DNA of 6,491 nt, from contig CBFFRP010000157.1 in assembly GCA_965644295.1 (NCBI GenBank), positions 1 through 6,491 of the forward strand, in the 5' to 3' direction. Below, piece after piece: positions 1 through 6,491 of this stretch. Source of the stretch: Paraphysomonas bandaiensis (lineage: Eukaryota > Protista > Chrysophyceae). Both the position numbers and the translations under genes were made by a program. The notes beneath the pieces are model-generated. The model was not told the origin of the DNA, made no database searches, and saw nothing but the letters and a program-made list of their open reading frames with translations. Positions within the stretch are counted from its first letter, which is position 1; the number at the start of each line of letters is the position of its first letter.

Positions 1-1150
1 ATGGAGGACTTGTTGTCCTGATAAAGCACAGTCGAGGCCGCAAGTAAGTAACCGCAGGTCTGAGAGCAGTGTTCTCCGACGAGGATTGGGAATACCAGTG
101 TCTGCAGAGATGAGTTCTGACCGGACGAGGAGCGGCTCACACACTTCTGCTTGACTGACTTTGCAAGTATGGTTCCACCACCGGAGCCTATCTTCATCAC
201 GATGCCTGTATGCCCTTCCCATCTGGGTGAACCCATAACCGCGTCTGCCCAACACTAAGTGCGGGATAGAGTCTGGGTCGAGTGTCAGCGTCAGGTCTTT
301 GGTGCCATTGATGTACGCCAACACTCGCAGCAGCTTGCATCGGTCATGGGTGTCTGGACACTTTGCCCTGGTGGCTAAATGGCTGCACGCAAGGCAAGAT
401 ATCGGGTCTGATCCTCTTGGCTAGGTACATAAGTTTCATCAGGAGGCTGAGATATTCACTAGCGTCCACCGGGTCTCACAGGCTTTGTCGTTCCGGAACA
501 AGTGCTTTTGTCAGCTGGAGTCTTGGCTTCCTTGGATCCGCTCGCCAGGGTCACGAAGTAGCTCGTCAATGCGGTTGCGTATGGAGACAGTGATGTGTCC
601 TTGGTCATGCACGGTGAGGACCATCCCGAGATATGGGATCTGGGATTCGGTTTCTGTGGTTACCTTTCCGAACTTGTCACTGAGGAGCTTCTCGAGCCAT
701 TCGGTGAGCTCCTCGAAGTTGTGGTGACCAGGAGGTCGTCCACGTGGAGTGCTAGTGGTGCACTTGCCACGTTTGGGTTCATATATAAACACACATGGAT
801 CGGCGTCGCTGATTCAGAAATCCGGGCTCAGCAGCACCCCTGAAATGGTTCTGCGCCAGCGTAGTCCTGCTTCGGGTAGTCCGTACAAGGCCTTGACTGC
901 GTCAGCAAGCATTGTCCCATTGGGTTGAACATATTCTTCACAGATGAGCTTGCGTCGCACGTAGACCTCGGTAACGTCCTGAACTGGATGATGTGGGGAT
1001 GCTCGAGGTCGGCGTTTAGGTGGGTAGGCACCCGGGATGTCCATCGTGGCTATGGTCCTCTTCTCATAGGCGGCAACGCTCAGAATTACCGCGACAGATC
1101 TAGTCTGACTGTGGGGGACGATGTGTCACCGGAGGCAATGGTCTGATCCT
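1..1150 (-). pseudogene. pol: Ty1/copia LTR-retrotransposon pol fragment (reverse transcriptase plus RNase H), multiply frameshifted, CoDi-like HVDD type
   Basis: Stitching minus-strand frames gives copia RT/RNase H motifs in the correct order: DTSSPTVRL / SVAVILSVAAYEKRTIATMDIPGAY / LNAD / KALYGLPEAGLRW / F*ISDADPCVF / LALHVDDLLVT (HVDD at 746-735) / YLGM / EAKTPA / YLSLLMKLMYLAKRIRPDIL / KLLRVLAYINGTKDL / WADA / HTGIVMKIG..TILAKSVKQKCVSRSS / SELI / VLYQDNKSS. RNase H runs off the window start. Confidence 0.93.
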
Positions 1151-1419
1151 TCGGCTAAATTATCCGCATACAAACCCATTTTTTTAAAATCAGCCCTACG
1201 AAAACTCATTTTTTCATCATCATCCTGAGGAATTGCAGATATATTCAAAGTTTCAATATTCATACAAAACCCGATGCATTCAACTTCATAATAATCACAA
1301 TCATCACAAGACAGAACTGGTAAAATTAATGTACAATCGTGAGCGCTTTCATTCATAGCATTTATAGACGTAAAATTATAAATAAAACTTTGGTTTCTGG
1401 GGAAATCCATCATAAACAT
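1126..1419 (-). CDS. Hypothetical beta-rich virus-like protein, 3'-truncated at the copia junction (possibly a single jelly-roll minor-capsid-like N-terminus)
   Basis: 97-aa ORF starting at TATATATAATG. Alternating hydrophobic strands (FIYNFTS, CTLILP, YYEVECIGFCMN, LYADNL). The last ~8 residues and the stop come from copia DNA read out of frame. Confidence 0.55.
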   Translation of the reverse strand: MFMMDFPRNQSFIYNFTSINAMNESAHDCTLILPVLSCDDCDYYEVECIGFCMNIETLNISAIPQDDDEKMSFRRADFKKMGLYADNLAEGSDHCLR

Positions 1420-1454
1420 TATATAATATATGTTATATAATAATTTAAAATTAA

Positions 1455-1628
1455 TTAAAGCTTTTTCTTAATTCTCTTTTTCACTGATGTAGCCTTTTTG
1501 TTTATCTTCTTGGCTACCTCCTTACGCTTGTTCTCTGCGTGCTTTGTTACGTCTTGTTTAGCTTTGTTTACTGATGCTCTAAGAGCTTTGTTAATCAGTT
1601 TGTTTACTTGGGCTTGATTCTTCGGCAT
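1455..1628 (-). CDS. Small, highly basic 57-aa protein (candidate DNA-condensing or core protein)
   Basis: MPKNQAQ...KKRIKKKL has 17 K and 3 R against 3 acidic residues. The ATG at 1628 is preceded by TTATTATAT. An upstream in-frame ATG at 1682 would give 75 aa. Confidence 0.6.
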   Translation of the reverse strand: MPKNQAQVNKLINKALRASVNKAKQDVTKHAENKRKEVAKKINKKATSVKKRIKKKL

Positions 1629-1750
1629 ATATAATAAGTGTATATATTTTTTTACAGGATAATAGGGAGTAAAATACGGCATGTCTATATATAGTGTTAA
1701 ACAGGTCTGTTGTTCCGTCTATCTGTTGTAATTGTTCGGTGTTTAAGTCA

Positions 1751-1825
1751 GGGTTGGTCTATCGTTTGTTAATAGGGTCGGTTGATCGTTTGGTTAATAG
1801 GGTCGGTTGATCGCTGGGGTTAATA
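1751..1825. repeat. Three degenerate tandem 24-26-bp repeats, consensus GGGTCGGTTGATCGTTTGGTTAATA
   Basis: Units at 1751-1774, 1775-1799 and 1800-1825, read directly from the sequence. Confidence 0.9.
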
Positions 1826-1851
1826 TGTATAGTATTATTTTATTTTGATTG

Positions 1852-2049
1852 CATTTTTTTTGACATTTTTGTTGAAAATATTTATTTCTGATATTTATTT
1901 TTTAGAAAAAAGTTTTTTTTTAAGAAAAATGTTGTAAAAAATGTAGTGTATACTGTTGCAAAATTTGTGAAAATAAGATTTTTTTTGCATTTTTTATTGT
2001 GAAAGGTGACACGACATTTTTTATGTAAAAAAGTGTATAAAAAAATGTA
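1852..2049. repeat. Two AT-rich imperfect inverted-repeat (hairpin) blocks built from CATTTTTT/AAAAAATG modules
   Basis: 1852-1870 matches the reverse complement of 1925-1943 at 16 of 19 positions. 1986-1997 (TGCATTTTTTAT) pairs imperfectly with 2037-2049 (ATAAAAAAATGTA) and encloses a smaller hairpin at 2014-2036. Confidence 0.65.
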
Positions 2050-2150
2050 ATGTACAATATTGGAAGCACTTGTACGTGATACACAGCGATACCATAGGGG
2101 TAAGGGTTGGTGTAAATTAATAGTTTTTATGGTCACGGTTAACACGGCTA

Positions 2151-2178
2151 GGGTCGAAGACCCCCCCCCCCTCTCTCT
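2151..2178. other. Putative element terminus: GGGTC-GAA-GACCC mini-hairpin, poly-C, then CTCTCTCT
   Basis: Perfect 5-bp stem with a C(GAA)G loop at 2151-2163, C11 at 2161-2171 and (CT)4 at 2171-2178. Confidence 0.5.
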
Positions 2179-2186
2179 GTGTGTGT

Positions 2187-2497
2187 AGTGTGACAACAAC
2201 ACGCTACAACAAAGAAGGTGAATTAAAATCAATACAACATAGATCAGGCGAACACAAAGCTAAAGAGCAGTAATATAGTAAGATATAACAGCATGGGCAG
2301 GACTCCATCGCTCTCTCCAATGCTCAAGTAGGCTTTTGTACACCATTCTTTCTCAACACAATCTCCATAGATGTCCTTCAGTCGCCTTCAGAAACATTGA
2401 TGAAACCTTGTACTCTGGGGGGGTCTATCAGCATCACTTAGTTTAATAATATAACTATGAATTATCATGCACAAGTGTGACAACAACACGCTACAAC
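2187..2497. repeat. Exact 24-bp direct repeat AGTGTGACAACAACACGCTACAAC, two copies
   Basis: Copies at 2187-2210 and 2474-2497, with 263 bp between them. They lie upstream of the MULE transposase. Confidence 0.92.
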
Positions 2498-2716
2498 CTC
2501 TCACACACCAAACTACATACTGAAAACGACTGGTTTGGAAACCAAATCGCATCTTGAAAAGATTTGCAGTTTGCTGGATGCATCAAAGCTGAAACATTCT
2601 GACTGTGCAAGATACTTGCTCCATACCATACGAAGTATTAGTGGTTTAGAGGAGAGCATATAAACAACCATTCTAAGATGAAGTAATCTGATGTATTATA
2701 ATAGCAATAATATACA

Positions 2717-2743: not shown

Positions 2744-3854
2744 ATGGATTCTATGAGTCAGTGCTCAGAGGACGAAGTGTTGGTAAACGAGGTTGTGGAC
2801 AGAACTCCGGATACATCTTCGGATCTTCCAAGTTCTTTGGAAAAGCGGCCGTATTTATTATCTTCAGACGAAGATACTGGGGATAATGATGACGACAGTG
2901 ATTTCGATGAGTTGTCGAATATCCCGCTTTTTACGCCGCCAAAGAAAAAAAGGGGTTTTGAGTGGAGAAAAATACAACAATCTCAGAAAAACACCCTCGA
3001 GCAAATTGTGAAGGGTCATTCCTGGCACAGTCCTCTGAGGAATGGGGTGGTGAAGAAGTGTGTTATGCACCAAGACTGTGAGCACTTTGTGAAAGTGCTC
3101 AAGACAGGAGAAGTGTACGAGCGAGGTGTACATAGTACACTCGTCAATGTAAACGTCCCCAAGTCGAGGGGAATATCTCCTCAAATCATTGACGAGGTCG
3201 ATGAGAAAATCCGCGAAGGTTTCATGCCGACATACATTTCCAACTTTTACAAATGCCACTCGGAGTACCGACACGTTGCTCCCACTGTTCACCAAGTATC
3301 GAATCGAAAGAAATTTCTACATAAAAGCACTTTAAAAGTGGACTCAGTGAAGGAGCTGCAGTCCTATCTGCAGTCCAAGACTGTAAGTATACACTTTACT
3401 GATATATTATATACTTCACCTAGACTTATGTTATCAACGTACAGGTACCTATTGCAGGACTTACGTGCCGTGATATTGTGAACTGTCCGGAAGAAGAGAG
3501 CGCAGATATGCTGGTGCTAAAAACTTTCCAGCAGGAAAGTCAGGATGACGATGGCAACCCTGTAGTATGTGATGGCTGGATATTTTCCAGCTATCATGAG
3601 CTCGATAATTTTATCGCTGTACTCAAGGCATACAAGGAGACAGGTCTGTGCCTTTCCGTAGATTCCACGTATAAGGTGACGAATAATGGGTGGACATTGA
3701 CTGCCCTAATTGCCGACAACCTCATAGAATCACGTGGAGGTAAGTATACCTAAAGTACTCATACCTTTAATGTATTTAACATATATATGTATATGACAGA
3801 ACATCATTTGACTAGAAAACCTGTCCCATTATTCCACGCCTGCAGTAGAGCGGA
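2744..3854 (+). CDS. Mutator/MULE-superfamily DDE transposase, spliced (exons 2744-3382, 3445-3739, 3800-3854), interrupted by an LTR element
   Basis: Acidic N-terminus, NLS-like PPKKKR, WRKY/GCM1-like Zn motif CVMHQDC...H, helical RGISPQIIDEV...PTVHQVSNRKK, first catalytic-D motif LSVDSTYKVTNNGWTL, then HHLTRKPVPLFHACSRA. Removing two GT-AG introns gives 329 codons with no stop. Confidence 0.86.
3383..3444 (+). other. Spliceosomal intron 1 (62 bp, phase 0) of the MULE transposase
   Basis: GTAAGT...ACAG, AT-rich. Removal joins ...QSKT to VPIAGLTCRDIVNCPEE..., linking the two track ORFs in frame. Confidence 0.82.
3740..3799 (+). other. Spliceosomal intron 2 (60 bp, phase 1) of the MULE transposase
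   Basis: G|GTAAGT...GACAG|. Removal skips the TAA at 3751-3753 and yields ESRGEHHLTRKPVPLFHACSRA. Confidence 0.82.
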
Positions 3855-4593
3855 TGTAACCCTGGGGGTTTATATAGTAGCAAGTGTAGTAGTGAAATAG
3901 GGTATTCAACAACAAGAAGAGAGTCAACAACAGAAGAAGGACAGCAAACAGTACAAGATAATTATTTACGAAGGAAGTGCAAACATCTAGCCACGAGTCA
4001 CGGAATTACAACAAGCCATTCACACTGAAGTGCATACTTGCGGCTACTCTAGGCAGTTATTAATATCACGACACTCAAAACACGTTACCCAGTATCTCTA
4101 CTACTTGCAATACATGTGAAGCCAGCCGACTGCACCTGTTGTTTTACGACGTAGAAGCAATAAGGGCAATGGAGAGAGACTTAGGTAGCATCAACGTGAT
4201 GTACACACAATTCTCTCTGCATCATCCTCAGAACAGCATAAGAAGGGATCTTCAGATGTTGCTAGTACATCCTGAACATAAATGTCTCAAGTTAAGTGCA
4301 GAACTATGGATGTACACAGCCCAATACCTCTGTGAGCTGCATTTTCATGATGGTGCTCTGGATGTGGAGATGAGCAGGAGTTAGGACCATTCAAGAGCAT
4401 ACTATAGACGCTATGCATGGTGATGCTGCTAAGCAGGCATAGTGGGTGGCTATTATGGCAAGCGTGTGGCTTAAAGAGGAATATATGGAGAGAGTAAAGA
4501 TGCAATACGTTTTATATGAGTTTAGGGAGTATGATAAGAGCAGTAGACTATCAGCGAATACGGTATCACGTTACTCATTTTAGTTAGCTGTTT

Positions 4594-4684
4594 TTCAGTT
4601 TTATCACTATGGTTTTATTTCAGTTTTATGCGTAGTTTCAGTTTTATGCGCAGTTATTCAGTTTCATACGCTGTTATTCAGTTT
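4594..4684 (+). repeat. Five-copy degenerate tandem repeat with core TTCAGTTT inside the LTR
   Basis: Cores at 4594, 4619, 4637, 4657 and 4677 (spacing 25, 18, 20, 20). Confidence 0.88.
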
Positions 4685-4753
4685 TGTTTTATTGTCATAA
4701 TACGTGTGGTATACACGGTGTATGCAAGAATGCATGCGGTGTGGTGTGTGTGA

Positions 4754-4796
4754 TATAAAATGAACTTGGTTCATTCTGTAGATGCGTACCATTCTA
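4754..4796 (+). promoter_or_regulatory. Candidate LTR core promoter (TATAAAA plus downstream YCATTC initiator-like motifs)
   Basis: TATAAAA at 4754-4760, palindrome TGAAC-TTG-GTTCA at 4761-4773, CCATTC at 4789-4794. It lies just 3' of the tandem-repeat block. Confidence 0.4.
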
Positions 4797-5255
4797 TATG
4801 TTATTCCTTGCATGTCATTGTTTTAAGTTACTTGACACTGTCTTAACAGCGATCTTTATTCTTAGAGGGAATACTGCGCGGCGTTATCTAGCGGATATCG
4901 TTGACCGTGTTGGGTGATTTAACAGTAATAATAAGTGTTTACTCACACCTTATTATATATTTTGTTGGGAGCAAACCAGCAAGTCTGGTTTGTGTACAGT
5001 AATATTACTTTTAGTCCCATAAGGCCTTTCATATTGCGTAGTAGTGTAGTAGATAATAATCATCTATATTGGAAGTCATTGACCATTGTGGGAGCGAAGT
5101 TTGAAGCAACAATATCTCATCTGGTACTGTGCCTGCGGACAAGCACGTCTAGACAGTAGATTTGTTACAGAGAGCTTAGCATTCACATAGGACAAAGACA
5201 ACCACCAGTAGCTAGTCTGATAGTAAGATACAATTGTCTTAGCATATAGACAGTA

Positions 5256-6491
5256 ATGGATGTCAATCAAGACGAAGCCACAGACCTGCAGCGTCTAATG
5301 CAGGGATTCGTAGAGCAAATTACAGGCGCGGTAAATACTCTAACTGAGACAGTAGCTGGGGTAAAAGATGACGTAGCTGGGCTCAAGCACGACGTAGCTG
5401 AGGTCAGCGATGAGCTCAAGGAATTGAGAGTAAGAGTAGCTGTCCTGGAAGGGACTTATTCATTTCCGGAACCATCTCCTCCTAGAAATTCACCAGCACC
5501 TGCCAGTGAACTTAGCCAGGAAGAAGCCGTAGAAGAGGCAAAGCCGAAACAAGGACCTGCTGAGAAGCAAAAGAAGGGTAGACCTTCCGTGTTACATGAG
5601 ATTGCTCAGGCGTCTAGAAGGCAGTCTATCGACGCAATTATTCCAACGCGAACTTCAACCAACGATGAATCAGATCCATTCGATGTAAAGTCAGTCAAAG
5701 GTTCTATATTCAGAGAGATTGCCAGCAGCGAGAGACAGGTAGCCTCGAGTGGAGAAGTGGTGATGCGACAGGCTAAGGAGTGCAATGTCAGAATAGATAG
5801 TTTCCAGCTATCGAAGGTGACGAAAGCTATCAAAGCAATCATGAATTTTCAGGAGGAAGAGAACACGAAAGTCAGAGTTCAGAAAATTCTCTCTCAAGCA
5901 TGCAAGGAGCACCTGCGTTCCAAATACCAGTTGACGCAGGGACAACTGGGATCGCTTGGTATTACAGATCTTATTAGAGTGATAGCCAACGAGACCAAAG
6001 TGTTTTCTAGACCAGCGTTTTACAAGGAATTAGAGGAAGCCCTACGACATTCCAGAGTCATGGGATGGGCTGTTGTGTCTCCCGTGAACCACGAGACATT
6101 CTACCATCAACAGCTAAAATTGATATCGGAGTTCGGAAGAATGCTTAACATTATGTTGGAGGGCAACAAGGACTGGTGCCCGAGAATTGATGACAAGCCG
6201 GGAGGACTTATTCGGCTTTTCAAAACGTGCAATGATGCAGAGTACTTCGAACATGTATGGAGTTGCATGACCGAAACTAAGTTTAAGAACATGCAGGAAT
6301 TCTTTGATCAGTACACCGAAATTATTTCTGATGAGTATCAGTTGAGTGTAGCTGTTAGGGAAATCCCCTACAAATGTTTAACAGAGCACAAGGAGAGGTT
6401 GAGAGTCTACAGAGAGAAGAAGGCGAATGAGAAGAAGATATTTTCAAAACCTCGCGTCTTAAAACCTCTGAATGCCATCGAGAAGTTCGAA
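5256..6491 (+). CDS. Gag-like protein (at least 412 aa, open at the window end) with an N-terminal coiled coil
   Basis: Hand translation from ATG 5256 shows no stop to 6491: MDVNQDEATDLQRLMQGFVEQITGAVNTLTETVAGVKDDVAGLKHDVAEVSDELKELRVRVAVLEG...PEPSPPRNSPAP...helical core...KPLNAIEKFE. It is absent from the track because it has no stop. The Gag call rests on position and architecture, not on a recognised motif. Confidence 0.85.
   Translation, partial: MDVNQDEATDLQRLMQGFVEQITGAVNTLTETVAGVKDDVAGLKHDVAEVSDELKELRVRVAVLEGTYSFPEPSPPRNSPAPASELSQEEAVEEAKPKQGPAEKQKKGRPSVLHEIAQASRRQSIDAIIPTRTSTNDESDPFDVKSVKGSIFREIASSERQVASSGEVVMRQAKECNVRIDSFQLSKVTKAIKAIMNFQEEENTKVRVQKILSQACKEHLRSKYQLTQGQLGSLGITDLIRVIANETKVFSRPAFYKELEEALRHSRVMGWAVVSPVNHETFYHQQLKLISEFGRMLNIMLEGNKDWCPRIDDKPGGLIRLFKTCNDAEYFEHVWSCMTETKFKNMQEFFDQYTEIISDEYQLSVAVREIPYKCLTEHKERLRVYREKKANEKKIFSKPRVLKPLNAIEKFE

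What the first reader, a model, noticed from the sequence alone, without database searches (positions are those of the whole stretch)
1151..2178. Candidate end of an uncharacterised endogenous Polinton-like virus
Seen: an AT-rich island, compact intronless genes with a shared start motif, a long repeat- and hairpin-rich non-coding end, and a minus-strand 5'-AGAGAGAG terminus followed by a G run. Established: Polintons/Mavericks have long TIRs starting with short AG or AGT repeats (used in protein-primed slide-back initiation) and ~6-bp TSDs, and protist genomes carry many AT-rich endogenous PLVs and virophages. Inference: ~1700-2178 is one TIR and the two ORFs are the first genes of a possibly new viral family. 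The predicted TSD is GTGTGT (2179-2184). This is the best novelty candidate in the window, although hallmark genes are absent.
Basis: partly seen in the sequence, partly recalled or inferred. Interest (0 to 1): 0.78.

Follow-up and report, generated by a model that had tools for sequence, protein, structure and literature searches.

The report
Broken end of Polinton-like virus
This 1-kb AT-rich island is likely the broken-off end of a Polinton-like virus integrated in a marine protist genome: it carries a cut gene whose full-length form is predicted to fold like a virus capsid corner (penton) protein, making it a new example of a well-known kind of endogenous virus.

Summary
ORF1 (1419-1137, minus) is the first 92 of 162 residues of a protein found whole elsewhere (P0001, 99% identical). 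Its model is an eight-stranded jelly roll whose six best structural matches are all virus capsid chains (Z 7.6-9.2; mavirus penton among them). A homologue lies beside a major-capsid-like gene, whose relatives sit on 9-17 kb contigs with an A32 packaging ATPase. The island begins at 1137, not 1151, where the cut gene abuts a cut copia retrotransposon. Contigs of two other runs leave the window's sequence between 2156 and 2195, so an element end lies there. Not shown: an inverted partner (TIR), the exact last base (2178 or 2186), a target-site duplication, the polymerase, the integrase or the element's own major capsid gene. 'New viral family' is unsupported: endogenous PLVs are common in protists. 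The scan's earlier notes hold no look-alike of this DNA or protein. Verdict: relic of a new member of a known kind.

The parts
1..1135 (-). Left flank: frameshifted Ty1/copia reverse-transcriptase region, cut at 1135 (not part of the viral element)
   Evidence: Weak Pfam RVT_2 hit, E 0.05; copia RT motifs recognised from recall; contigs of depth 70-82 in X5/X11 cover 1-1135 and run on with other sequence
1136..1136 (.). Junction base between cut copia and cut viral gene
   Evidence: Loose ends behind 1135 and before 1137; no listed contig spans it
1137..1419 (-). ORF1: 5' part (92 of 162 residues) of a single jelly-roll, penton-like minor capsid gene; start likely 1419 or 1413
   Evidence: 99% identical to P0001/P0004 over 93-94 residues; model and fold searches
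1420..1433 (-). TA-rich start motif directly upstream of ORF1
1455..1628 (-). ORF2: intact 57-residue basic protein (20-21 K+R, 3 D+E in the near-identical P0009/P0013); the 75-residue form from 1682 is the less likely start; predicted DNA-binding core protein (inference only)
   Evidence: 13-member cluster at 95-99% identity; start motif at 1628; no family hit at curated cut-off
1683..2160 (.). Non-coding, multi-copy terminal region (candidate TIR arm), with three 25-nt tandem repeats at 1750-1825
   Evidence: Single contigs of depth 81 (X5) and 55 (X11) against about 14 and 6 in low-copy parts; repeats
2161..2186 (-). Candidate terminus: C run, (CT)4 to 2178, T(GT)4 to 2186; exact last base open
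   Evidence: Sequence; other copies diverge between 2156 and 2195; both (AG)3 and (AC)3A are published Maverick end motifs (PMC8097293)
2187..2210 (+). Exact 24-nt copy of 2474-2497, likely junction filler templated from the right flank
   Evidence: D5; 2196-2212 not covered in X5, X11, X15 (depth arithmetic)
2213..2542 (.). Right flank: a separate host repeat with another upstream neighbour in X5, X11 and X15
   Evidence: Loose end before 2213 in three runs

Best explanation
The stretch 1137 to about 2180 is likely one end of an endogenous Polinton-like virus, left as a dead 1-kb relic after a likely deletion joined the middle of its penton-like gene to the middle of a copia retrotransposon. 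Shown: the gene is cut at 1137, intact copies exist elsewhere, the terminal region is multi-copy, and other copies have other flanks. Predicted: the whole ORF1 product is a single jelly-roll vertex (penton/minor capsid) protein. [quoted passage not shown] The window's copy cannot make a particle.
For: P0001, 162 aa, 99% identical over 96% of ORF1. Contigs in X15 and X16 run on left of 1137 with letters that encode the next residues of P0001 (read by eye). AlphaFold model pLDDT 78, pTM 0.76, eight strands. Against 48,161 PDB representatives the top 6 are virus capsid chains: PBCV-1 6ncl_a6 Z 9.2 (rmsd 3.6, 130 aligned), 8h2i_bG 8.6, EhV 8rbt_S 8.1, adenovirus 8roq_M 8.1, mavirus penton 6g41 7.9 (rmsd 3.8, 137), Sputnik 3j26_N 7.6; first non-viral row 6.1. 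Best BFVD match: a 161-aa protein of Drosophila-associated adintovirus 2, E 8e-5. Family of 145-160 aa proteins: 11 hits among 1.84 billion representatives, some of them repetitive junk, 17 hits with the profile. Two of the three loci from the metagenome scan are real: L030 has the homologue (phmmer E 3e-9 among 160 ORFs), a tandem jelly-roll paralogue, a fibre-like gene and a 404+ aa gene that resembles double jelly-roll capsid clusters (Atlas 0.97, recognition below the tool's mark; Pfam Capsid_N E 0.099); L029 has the homologue followed by about 1 kb of AT-rich repeat-rich non-coding DNA. The L030 capsid gene finds 6 IMG/VR contigs of 9-17 kb at 37-40% identity; the two tested ATPases hit Pox_A32 (E 4e-11, 7e-11), with D5-type helicase and GIY-YIG genes in others. 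Start motif at 38 of 75 long-ORF starts against 81 of 2924 other ATGs in those 8 loci.
Against: No inverted partner, TSD, major capsid, ATPase, polymerase or integrase was seen for this element itself. Foldseek against PDB gave no match at E 0.001; Z 7.6-9.2 is close to the level the tool calls common, and nucleoplasmin cores score 5.3-5.9. The link to full PLVs takes two steps (ORF1 to L030 minor capsid, L030 major capsid to L032-L037), and the small jelly-roll-like genes of those six contigs do not match the ORF1 profile (0 hits at E 0.01; hhalign probability under 1%). No TIR of 40 nt or more at the ends of the four such loci examined, which may be incomplete. The Atlas's nearest clusters for P0001 are labelled mostly Nucleocytoviricota. 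No listed contig spans either junction of the window, so an assembly join is not excluded. The start motif was defined after seeing the sequences, and intergenic DNA is AT-rich anyway.
Confidence: 0.8

Rival explanations
1. The fragment comes from another capsid-bearing DNA virus, a giant-virus (Nucleocytoviricota) insertion or a virophage, rather than a PLV.
For: Best structural match is a PBCV-1 chain; Atlas neighbours are labelled mostly Nucleocytoviricota; penton folds are shared across these groups.
Against: Sequence homologues lie in compact 30-32% GC contigs beside a capsid gene whose relatives are on 9-17 kb contigs with PLV-type content; multi-copy end with changing flanks.
Confidence: 0.08
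2. It is the end of a short non-autonomous element (a PLV deletion derivative or a DNA transposon) that carries ORF2 and a penton-like gene but no longer belongs to a whole virus; the penton-like paralogues may have another job.
For: The terminal region has several times the depth of this ORF1 variant in X5 (81 against 13); database contigs with these genes are all short, at most about 2 kb; paralogues P0018/P0019 carry an added acidic tail.
Against: Short contigs are expected for multi-copy PLVs in short-read assemblies (PMC10120064 passages); ORF2 and the full ORF1 are open in many database copies.
Confidence: 0.07
3. The element is a PLV, but the window's arrangement (copia, PLV end, other repeat) is an assembly chimera of collapsed repeats rather than a real decayed locus.
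For: No listed contig crosses 1135-1137 or 2196-2212 in the runs laid (the tables are cut and other strains need not share the locus); the copia part differs from run contigs by 45 gaps in 1135 bases while the island matches with 0 differences over 279-335 bases.
Against: Both junctions have non-matching extra letters (one base on the left, a 24-nt copy of nearby DNA on the right), which looks more like break repair than a repeat-driven misjoin (inference); nests of PLVs with transposons and partial viral genomes are published (bioRxiv 2026.07.28.741278 passages).
Confidence: 0.12
4. The AG run is not the terminus: the true end lies at the G run, at 2186, or further out, and the element may integrate by a tyrosine recombinase without a TSD.
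For: 2156-2195 was masked by the tool, so the divergence point is known only to 40 bases; an X5 contig branches inside the C run; flank homology starts at 2187; related PLVs L032, L033, L035, L037 carry a gene with a tyrosine-recombinase-like pattern (motif from recall; no Pfam or PDB hit), and such PLVs lack true TSDs (PMC12220804 passages).
Against: (AG)3 is a published Maverick end motif and lies inside the 40-base divergence interval; CTCTCT starts at only 3 other places on the + strand of the window.
Confidence: 0.3

Closest known systems
Endogenous Polinton-like viruses of protists (Bellas et al. 2023, PMC10120064; Bulzu et al. 2025, PMC12220804; passages read)
   Same: Low-GC insertion in a repeat-rich protist genome, minor capsid gene, multi-copy and poorly assembled from short reads, neighbouring retrotransposons.
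   Different: Only 1 kb of one end is present; major capsid, ATPase, replicase, integrase and TIR pair not seen; group cannot be assigned.
Unnamed aquatic PLV-like contigs L029, L030 (JGI) and L032-L037 (IMG/VR)
   Same: L029/L030 carry sequence homologues of ORF1 (about 28% identity for L030's, as P0045), the same TATAT-ATG start signal and 30-32% GC; L029 has the gene next to a long non-coding repeat region.
   Different: No DNA similarity beyond chance short matches; no ORF2 homologue; in L029 the gene points toward the non-coding region, here away from it.
Maverick/Polinton elements and adintoviruses (Barreat and Katzourakis 2021, PMC8097293; passages read)
   Same: Dinucleotide-repeat end motifs (AG)3 and (AC)3A; best BFVD structural match is an adintovirus protein of the same length.
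   Different: pPolB, rve integrase, protease and 6-bp TSD, which define them, could not be tested; the vertebrate gene order is not seen.
Endogenous mavirus-like elements of Cafeteria burkhardae (Hackl et al. 2021, PMC8547959; passages read)
   Same: 29-38% GC integrated viruses with TIRs of several hundred bases, type-specific promoter motifs, truncated copies, penton of the same fold (6g41, Z 7.9).
   Different: Mavirus penton is about 300 residues with an insertion, ORF1 is 162; no TCTA-type motif was noted at the two starts; no sequence hit to it in the PDB search.

Membership tests
Polinton-like viruses | Single jelly-roll minor capsid (penton) gene | tested here: met
   Predicted fold of the full-length P0001 and its matches; the window holds 92 of 162 residues. 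Fold level only; function untested.
Polinton-like viruses | Double jelly-roll major capsid gene in the same element | not testable with these tools
   Element cut at 1137; no genome; no long contig of the element. A homologue's contig L030 has a candidate; its single-sequence model failed (pLDDT 33).
Polinton-like viruses | A32-type packaging ATPase | not testable with these tools
   Seen only two steps away, in L032 and L033.
Polinton-like viruses | Terminal inverted repeats | tested here: inconclusive
   One multi-copy end with changing flanks; no partner arm in the window.
Polinton-like viruses | Size 14-40 kb with a GC shift against the host | tested here: inconclusive
   GC shift clear on the left, weak on the right; parent length unknown.
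Maverick/Polinton (Polintoviricetes) | Protein-primed PolB and rve integrase | not testable with these tools
   Not in the window; parent not recovered.
Maverick/Polinton (Polintoviricetes) | (AG)3, (AGT)2 or (AC)3A end motif | tested here: inconclusive
   Both (AG)n and (AC)n runs lie in the 2156-2195 divergence interval; last base not resolved.
Maverick/Polinton (Polintoviricetes) | 5-6 bp target-site duplication | not testable with these tools
   The other end is missing from the locus.
Virophages (mavirus-like) | Virophage-type major capsid, cysteine protease and penton | tested here: inconclusive
   Fold match to mavirus and Sputnik chains is tied with others; no sequence match; other genes not available.

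The most novel reading that the evidence does not exclude
The parent is an active PLV lineage, widespread in a marine protist group, whose long terminal repeat itself carries a basic core-protein gene followed by interchangeable penton paralogues (P0001, P0018, P0019 types, two with nucleoplasmin-like acidic tails), and which joins a Maverick-type AG end to the capsid module of non-Maverick aquatic PLVs: a capsid-vertex cassette that varies at the genome ends.
Probability: 0.15. Interest if true: 0.6.

Novelty: new member of a known kind. Interest (0 to 1): 0.33.

Why it matters
It turns an orphan ORF into a recognisable capsid gene and gives a probe (a 150-residue minor capsid family with no Pfam, NCBIfam or PHROGs entry at cut-off in the members tested) for a PLV lineage held in at least 14 studies of marine organisms and metagenomes. 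With a long-read host genome it would give a host-virus link and a test of whether the shared TATAT-ATG signal points to a helper giant virus. The relic itself has no likely function.

Tried and rejected
IMG/VR scans: a 15-mer of the tandem repeat gave 28 loci with one match each and no wider similarity, taken as chance; a terminal 19-mer gave 0; P0001, P0022, P0051, alignment A6 and ORF2 gave no confirmed relative among 42, 4, 1, 69 and 28 candidates. GTDB genomes: none among 62 and 105 candidates. Phage records: none. Pfam, NCBIfam, PHROGs and PDB sequence searches name neither ORF. ORF2 against the basic 180-aa family of the related PLVs: score 2.1 bits, 97 of 500 shuffles as good, rejected. 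The L030 capsid model was too poor to search; its alignment found no PDB sequence. No complex prediction was obtained, so oligomer state is untested. Host taxon could not be fixed: the Atlas gave only scores of 0.82 or less for the 412-aa ORF. RNA contig cover (X16, 1137-1453, depth 3.5) is not taken as proof of transcription. Paper supplements (MCP/mCP HMM sets and genome tables of Bellas 2023, Bulzu 2025 and the 2026 preprints) were not read and may already contain this lineage.

Full report
Setting. The window is a nest of repeats from a eukaryote. No genome is held. I could not fix the taxon.

Observation. The island has G+C 0.315 (1137-2178), against 0.544 on the left and 0.37 directly on the right. 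It holds two minus-strand ORFs, three 25-nt tandem repeats at 1750-1825, imperfect A/T inverted repeats and CTCTCTCT at 2171-2178 behind a C run. The 8-mer alone is not beyond chance (44 of 200 shuffles), and folding of the non-coding part is modest (z -2.46).

ORF1 is a cut capsid gene. A search with the 97-residue ORF returned 2 proteins; P0001 is 162 residues long and 99% identical over 96% of the query. The match ends at residue 92-93; contigs in X15 and X16 leave the window at 1137 and go on with letters that encode the next residues of P0001, while copia contigs in X5, X11 and X15 leave it at 1135. So the left edge is a break inside two different elements, with one unexplained base between them. 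P0001 found 11 representatives among 1.84 billion (three of them, P0020, P0021, P0026, match in many short repeats and were left out of alignments), and a 7-sequence profile found 17 proteins, mostly 145-160 residues. A model built on 18 sequences has pLDDT 78 and eight strands. Against 48,161 PDB representatives the six best rows are all virus capsid chains, Z 9.2 to 7.6, the first non-viral row 6.1; the tool names one of them mavirus penton. That 6ncl_a6 is the PBCV-1 penton A310L, 8roq_M the adenovirus penton base and 3j26_N the Sputnik minor capsid protein is recalled; PMC7019647 (one passage) says only that A310L is an eight-stranded jelly-roll penton. Foldseek found nothing at E 0.001 in PDB, with the same two entries on top, and ranked an adintovirus protein first in BFVD (E 8e-5). 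These Z values are near the range the tool calls common, so the case rests on the run of viral rows and on gene context.

Gene context of relatives. L030 carries the homologue, a tandem jelly-roll paralogue, a fibre-like gene and a 404+ residue gene resembling double jelly-roll capsid clusters. L029 carries the same paralogue pair followed by about 1 kb of AT-rich repeats. The L030 capsid gene found 6 IMG/VR contigs of 9-17 kb (6 of 7 candidates); both ATPases tested hit Pox_A32, and D5-type helicase and GIY-YIG genes occur (12 proteins scanned). Four carry a gene with a tyrosine-recombinase-like pattern (motif recalled, no database hit). Against this link: the small jelly-roll-like genes of those six contigs do not match the ORF1 profile, and none of four examined shows a TIR. 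A TA-rich 5-mer precedes 38 of 75 long-ORF starts but 81 of 2924 other ATGs in these 8 loci, and in the island it marks 1628 and 1419 among 3 of 37 ATGs (motif defined after inspection). This favours the 57-residue form of ORF2.

The right end. In X5 a single contig over 1836-2054 has depth 81 against 13-14 for ORF1 and low-copy DNA; in X11 55 against about 6. The tool warns that depth is no copy number, so I read this only as several copies. Contig breaks and loose ends at 1420 suggest that the shared segment includes ORF2. An X5 contig of depth 47 stops 15 letters past 2155. The stretch 2156-2195 was masked, so the end is placed only within 40 bases. Bases 2187-2210 are an exact copy of 2474-2497, and 2213 onward has another upstream neighbour in three runs. 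Thus the GT run offered as TSD may be terminus or filler; both (AG)3 and (AC)3A ends are published for Mavericks (PMC8097293 passages). With the other end gone, no TSD can be read.

Mechanism. Shown: a cut gene, intact copies elsewhere, a multi-copy end with changing flanks. Predicted: penton-like fold. Inferred: a linear integrating PLV of ordinary size; ORF2 as a DNA-condensing protein from its charge alone (a link to the basic family of related PLVs failed); the end motif as origin; a later deletion with break repair that left this relic. An assembly join is not excluded, since no listed contig spans either junction.

What is known. Endogenous PLVs and virophages are common in protists, assemble as fragments from short reads and lie near retrotransposons (PMC10120064, passages); ends, TSDs and their link to the integrase type are described (PMC12220804, passages; PMC8547959, passages; bioRxiv 068312, passages; PMC7805220, passages); nests with MULE and other transposons and partial viral genomes are described (bioRxiv 2026.07.28.741278, passages); multiple penton genes and module swaps are described (bioRxiv 2026.06.19.733378, abstract and section 7; bioRxiv 2026.10.13.758929, passages). 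Supplements were not read and may include this lineage. The scan's own index has no look-alike of the protein or the DNA.

Verdict. A real feature, correctly suspected: the relic end of a likely PLV, a new member of a known kind. Interest 0.33. The boldest reading left open, a terminal cassette of a basic protein plus interchangeable penton paralogues, rests on contig-length coincidences between the ORF2 cluster and the P0018/P0019 clusters (948, 1081, 1091, 886 bases) and on variant contigs; I give it 0.15.

Noticed in passing
P0018, P0019 (paralogues of window 1137-1419): Penton-like paralogues with an added acidic tail; their clusters share contig lengths with the ORF2 cluster, so ORF2 probably precedes different penton variants. 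A jelly roll plus acidic tail next to a basic protein recalls nucleoplasmin.
   Followed up: partly
window 1258 to 2115: Contigs in X1, X6 and X11 join a diverged ORF1 stretch to 27 letters at 2115 with unknown sequence between: a diverged subfamily or derivative that keeps the same near-terminal motif.
   Followed up: no
window 1820: An X15 contig has a 22-T loose end before 1820, which could be a poly(A) tail of a minus-strand transcript from the terminal region; X15 is only guessed to be RNA.
   Followed up: no
window 1137-1453: A contig of a marine metatranscriptome (X16, depth 3.5) covers ORF1 with no difference and begins 34 bases upstream of its start; weak hint of expression of an intact copy.
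   Followed up: no
window 2744-3850 (+): ORF pieces separated by GT..AG intron-like gaps near 3385-3444 and 3742-3799, with a DSTYK motif that I recall from Mutator-like transposases; no family hit.
   Followed up: partly
window 3885-6491 (+): High-depth LTR-like repeat starting TGTAGT at 3885 followed by a 412+ residue gag-like ORF with no family hit.
   Followed up: partly
window 2428 to about 2747: In X15 a contig joins 2428 to sequence like 2747 onward through a short shared word, a form lacking about 320 bases.
   Followed up: no
window 1-1135: The copia stretch differs from run contigs by 37 substitutions and 45 gaps while the island matches with none: old decay or unpolished assembly.
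   Followed up: no
L037:4400-5672: 159-nt inverted repeat pair (94%) around a 263-residue ORF inside a related PLV contig, possibly a small mobile or invertible cassette.
   Followed up: no
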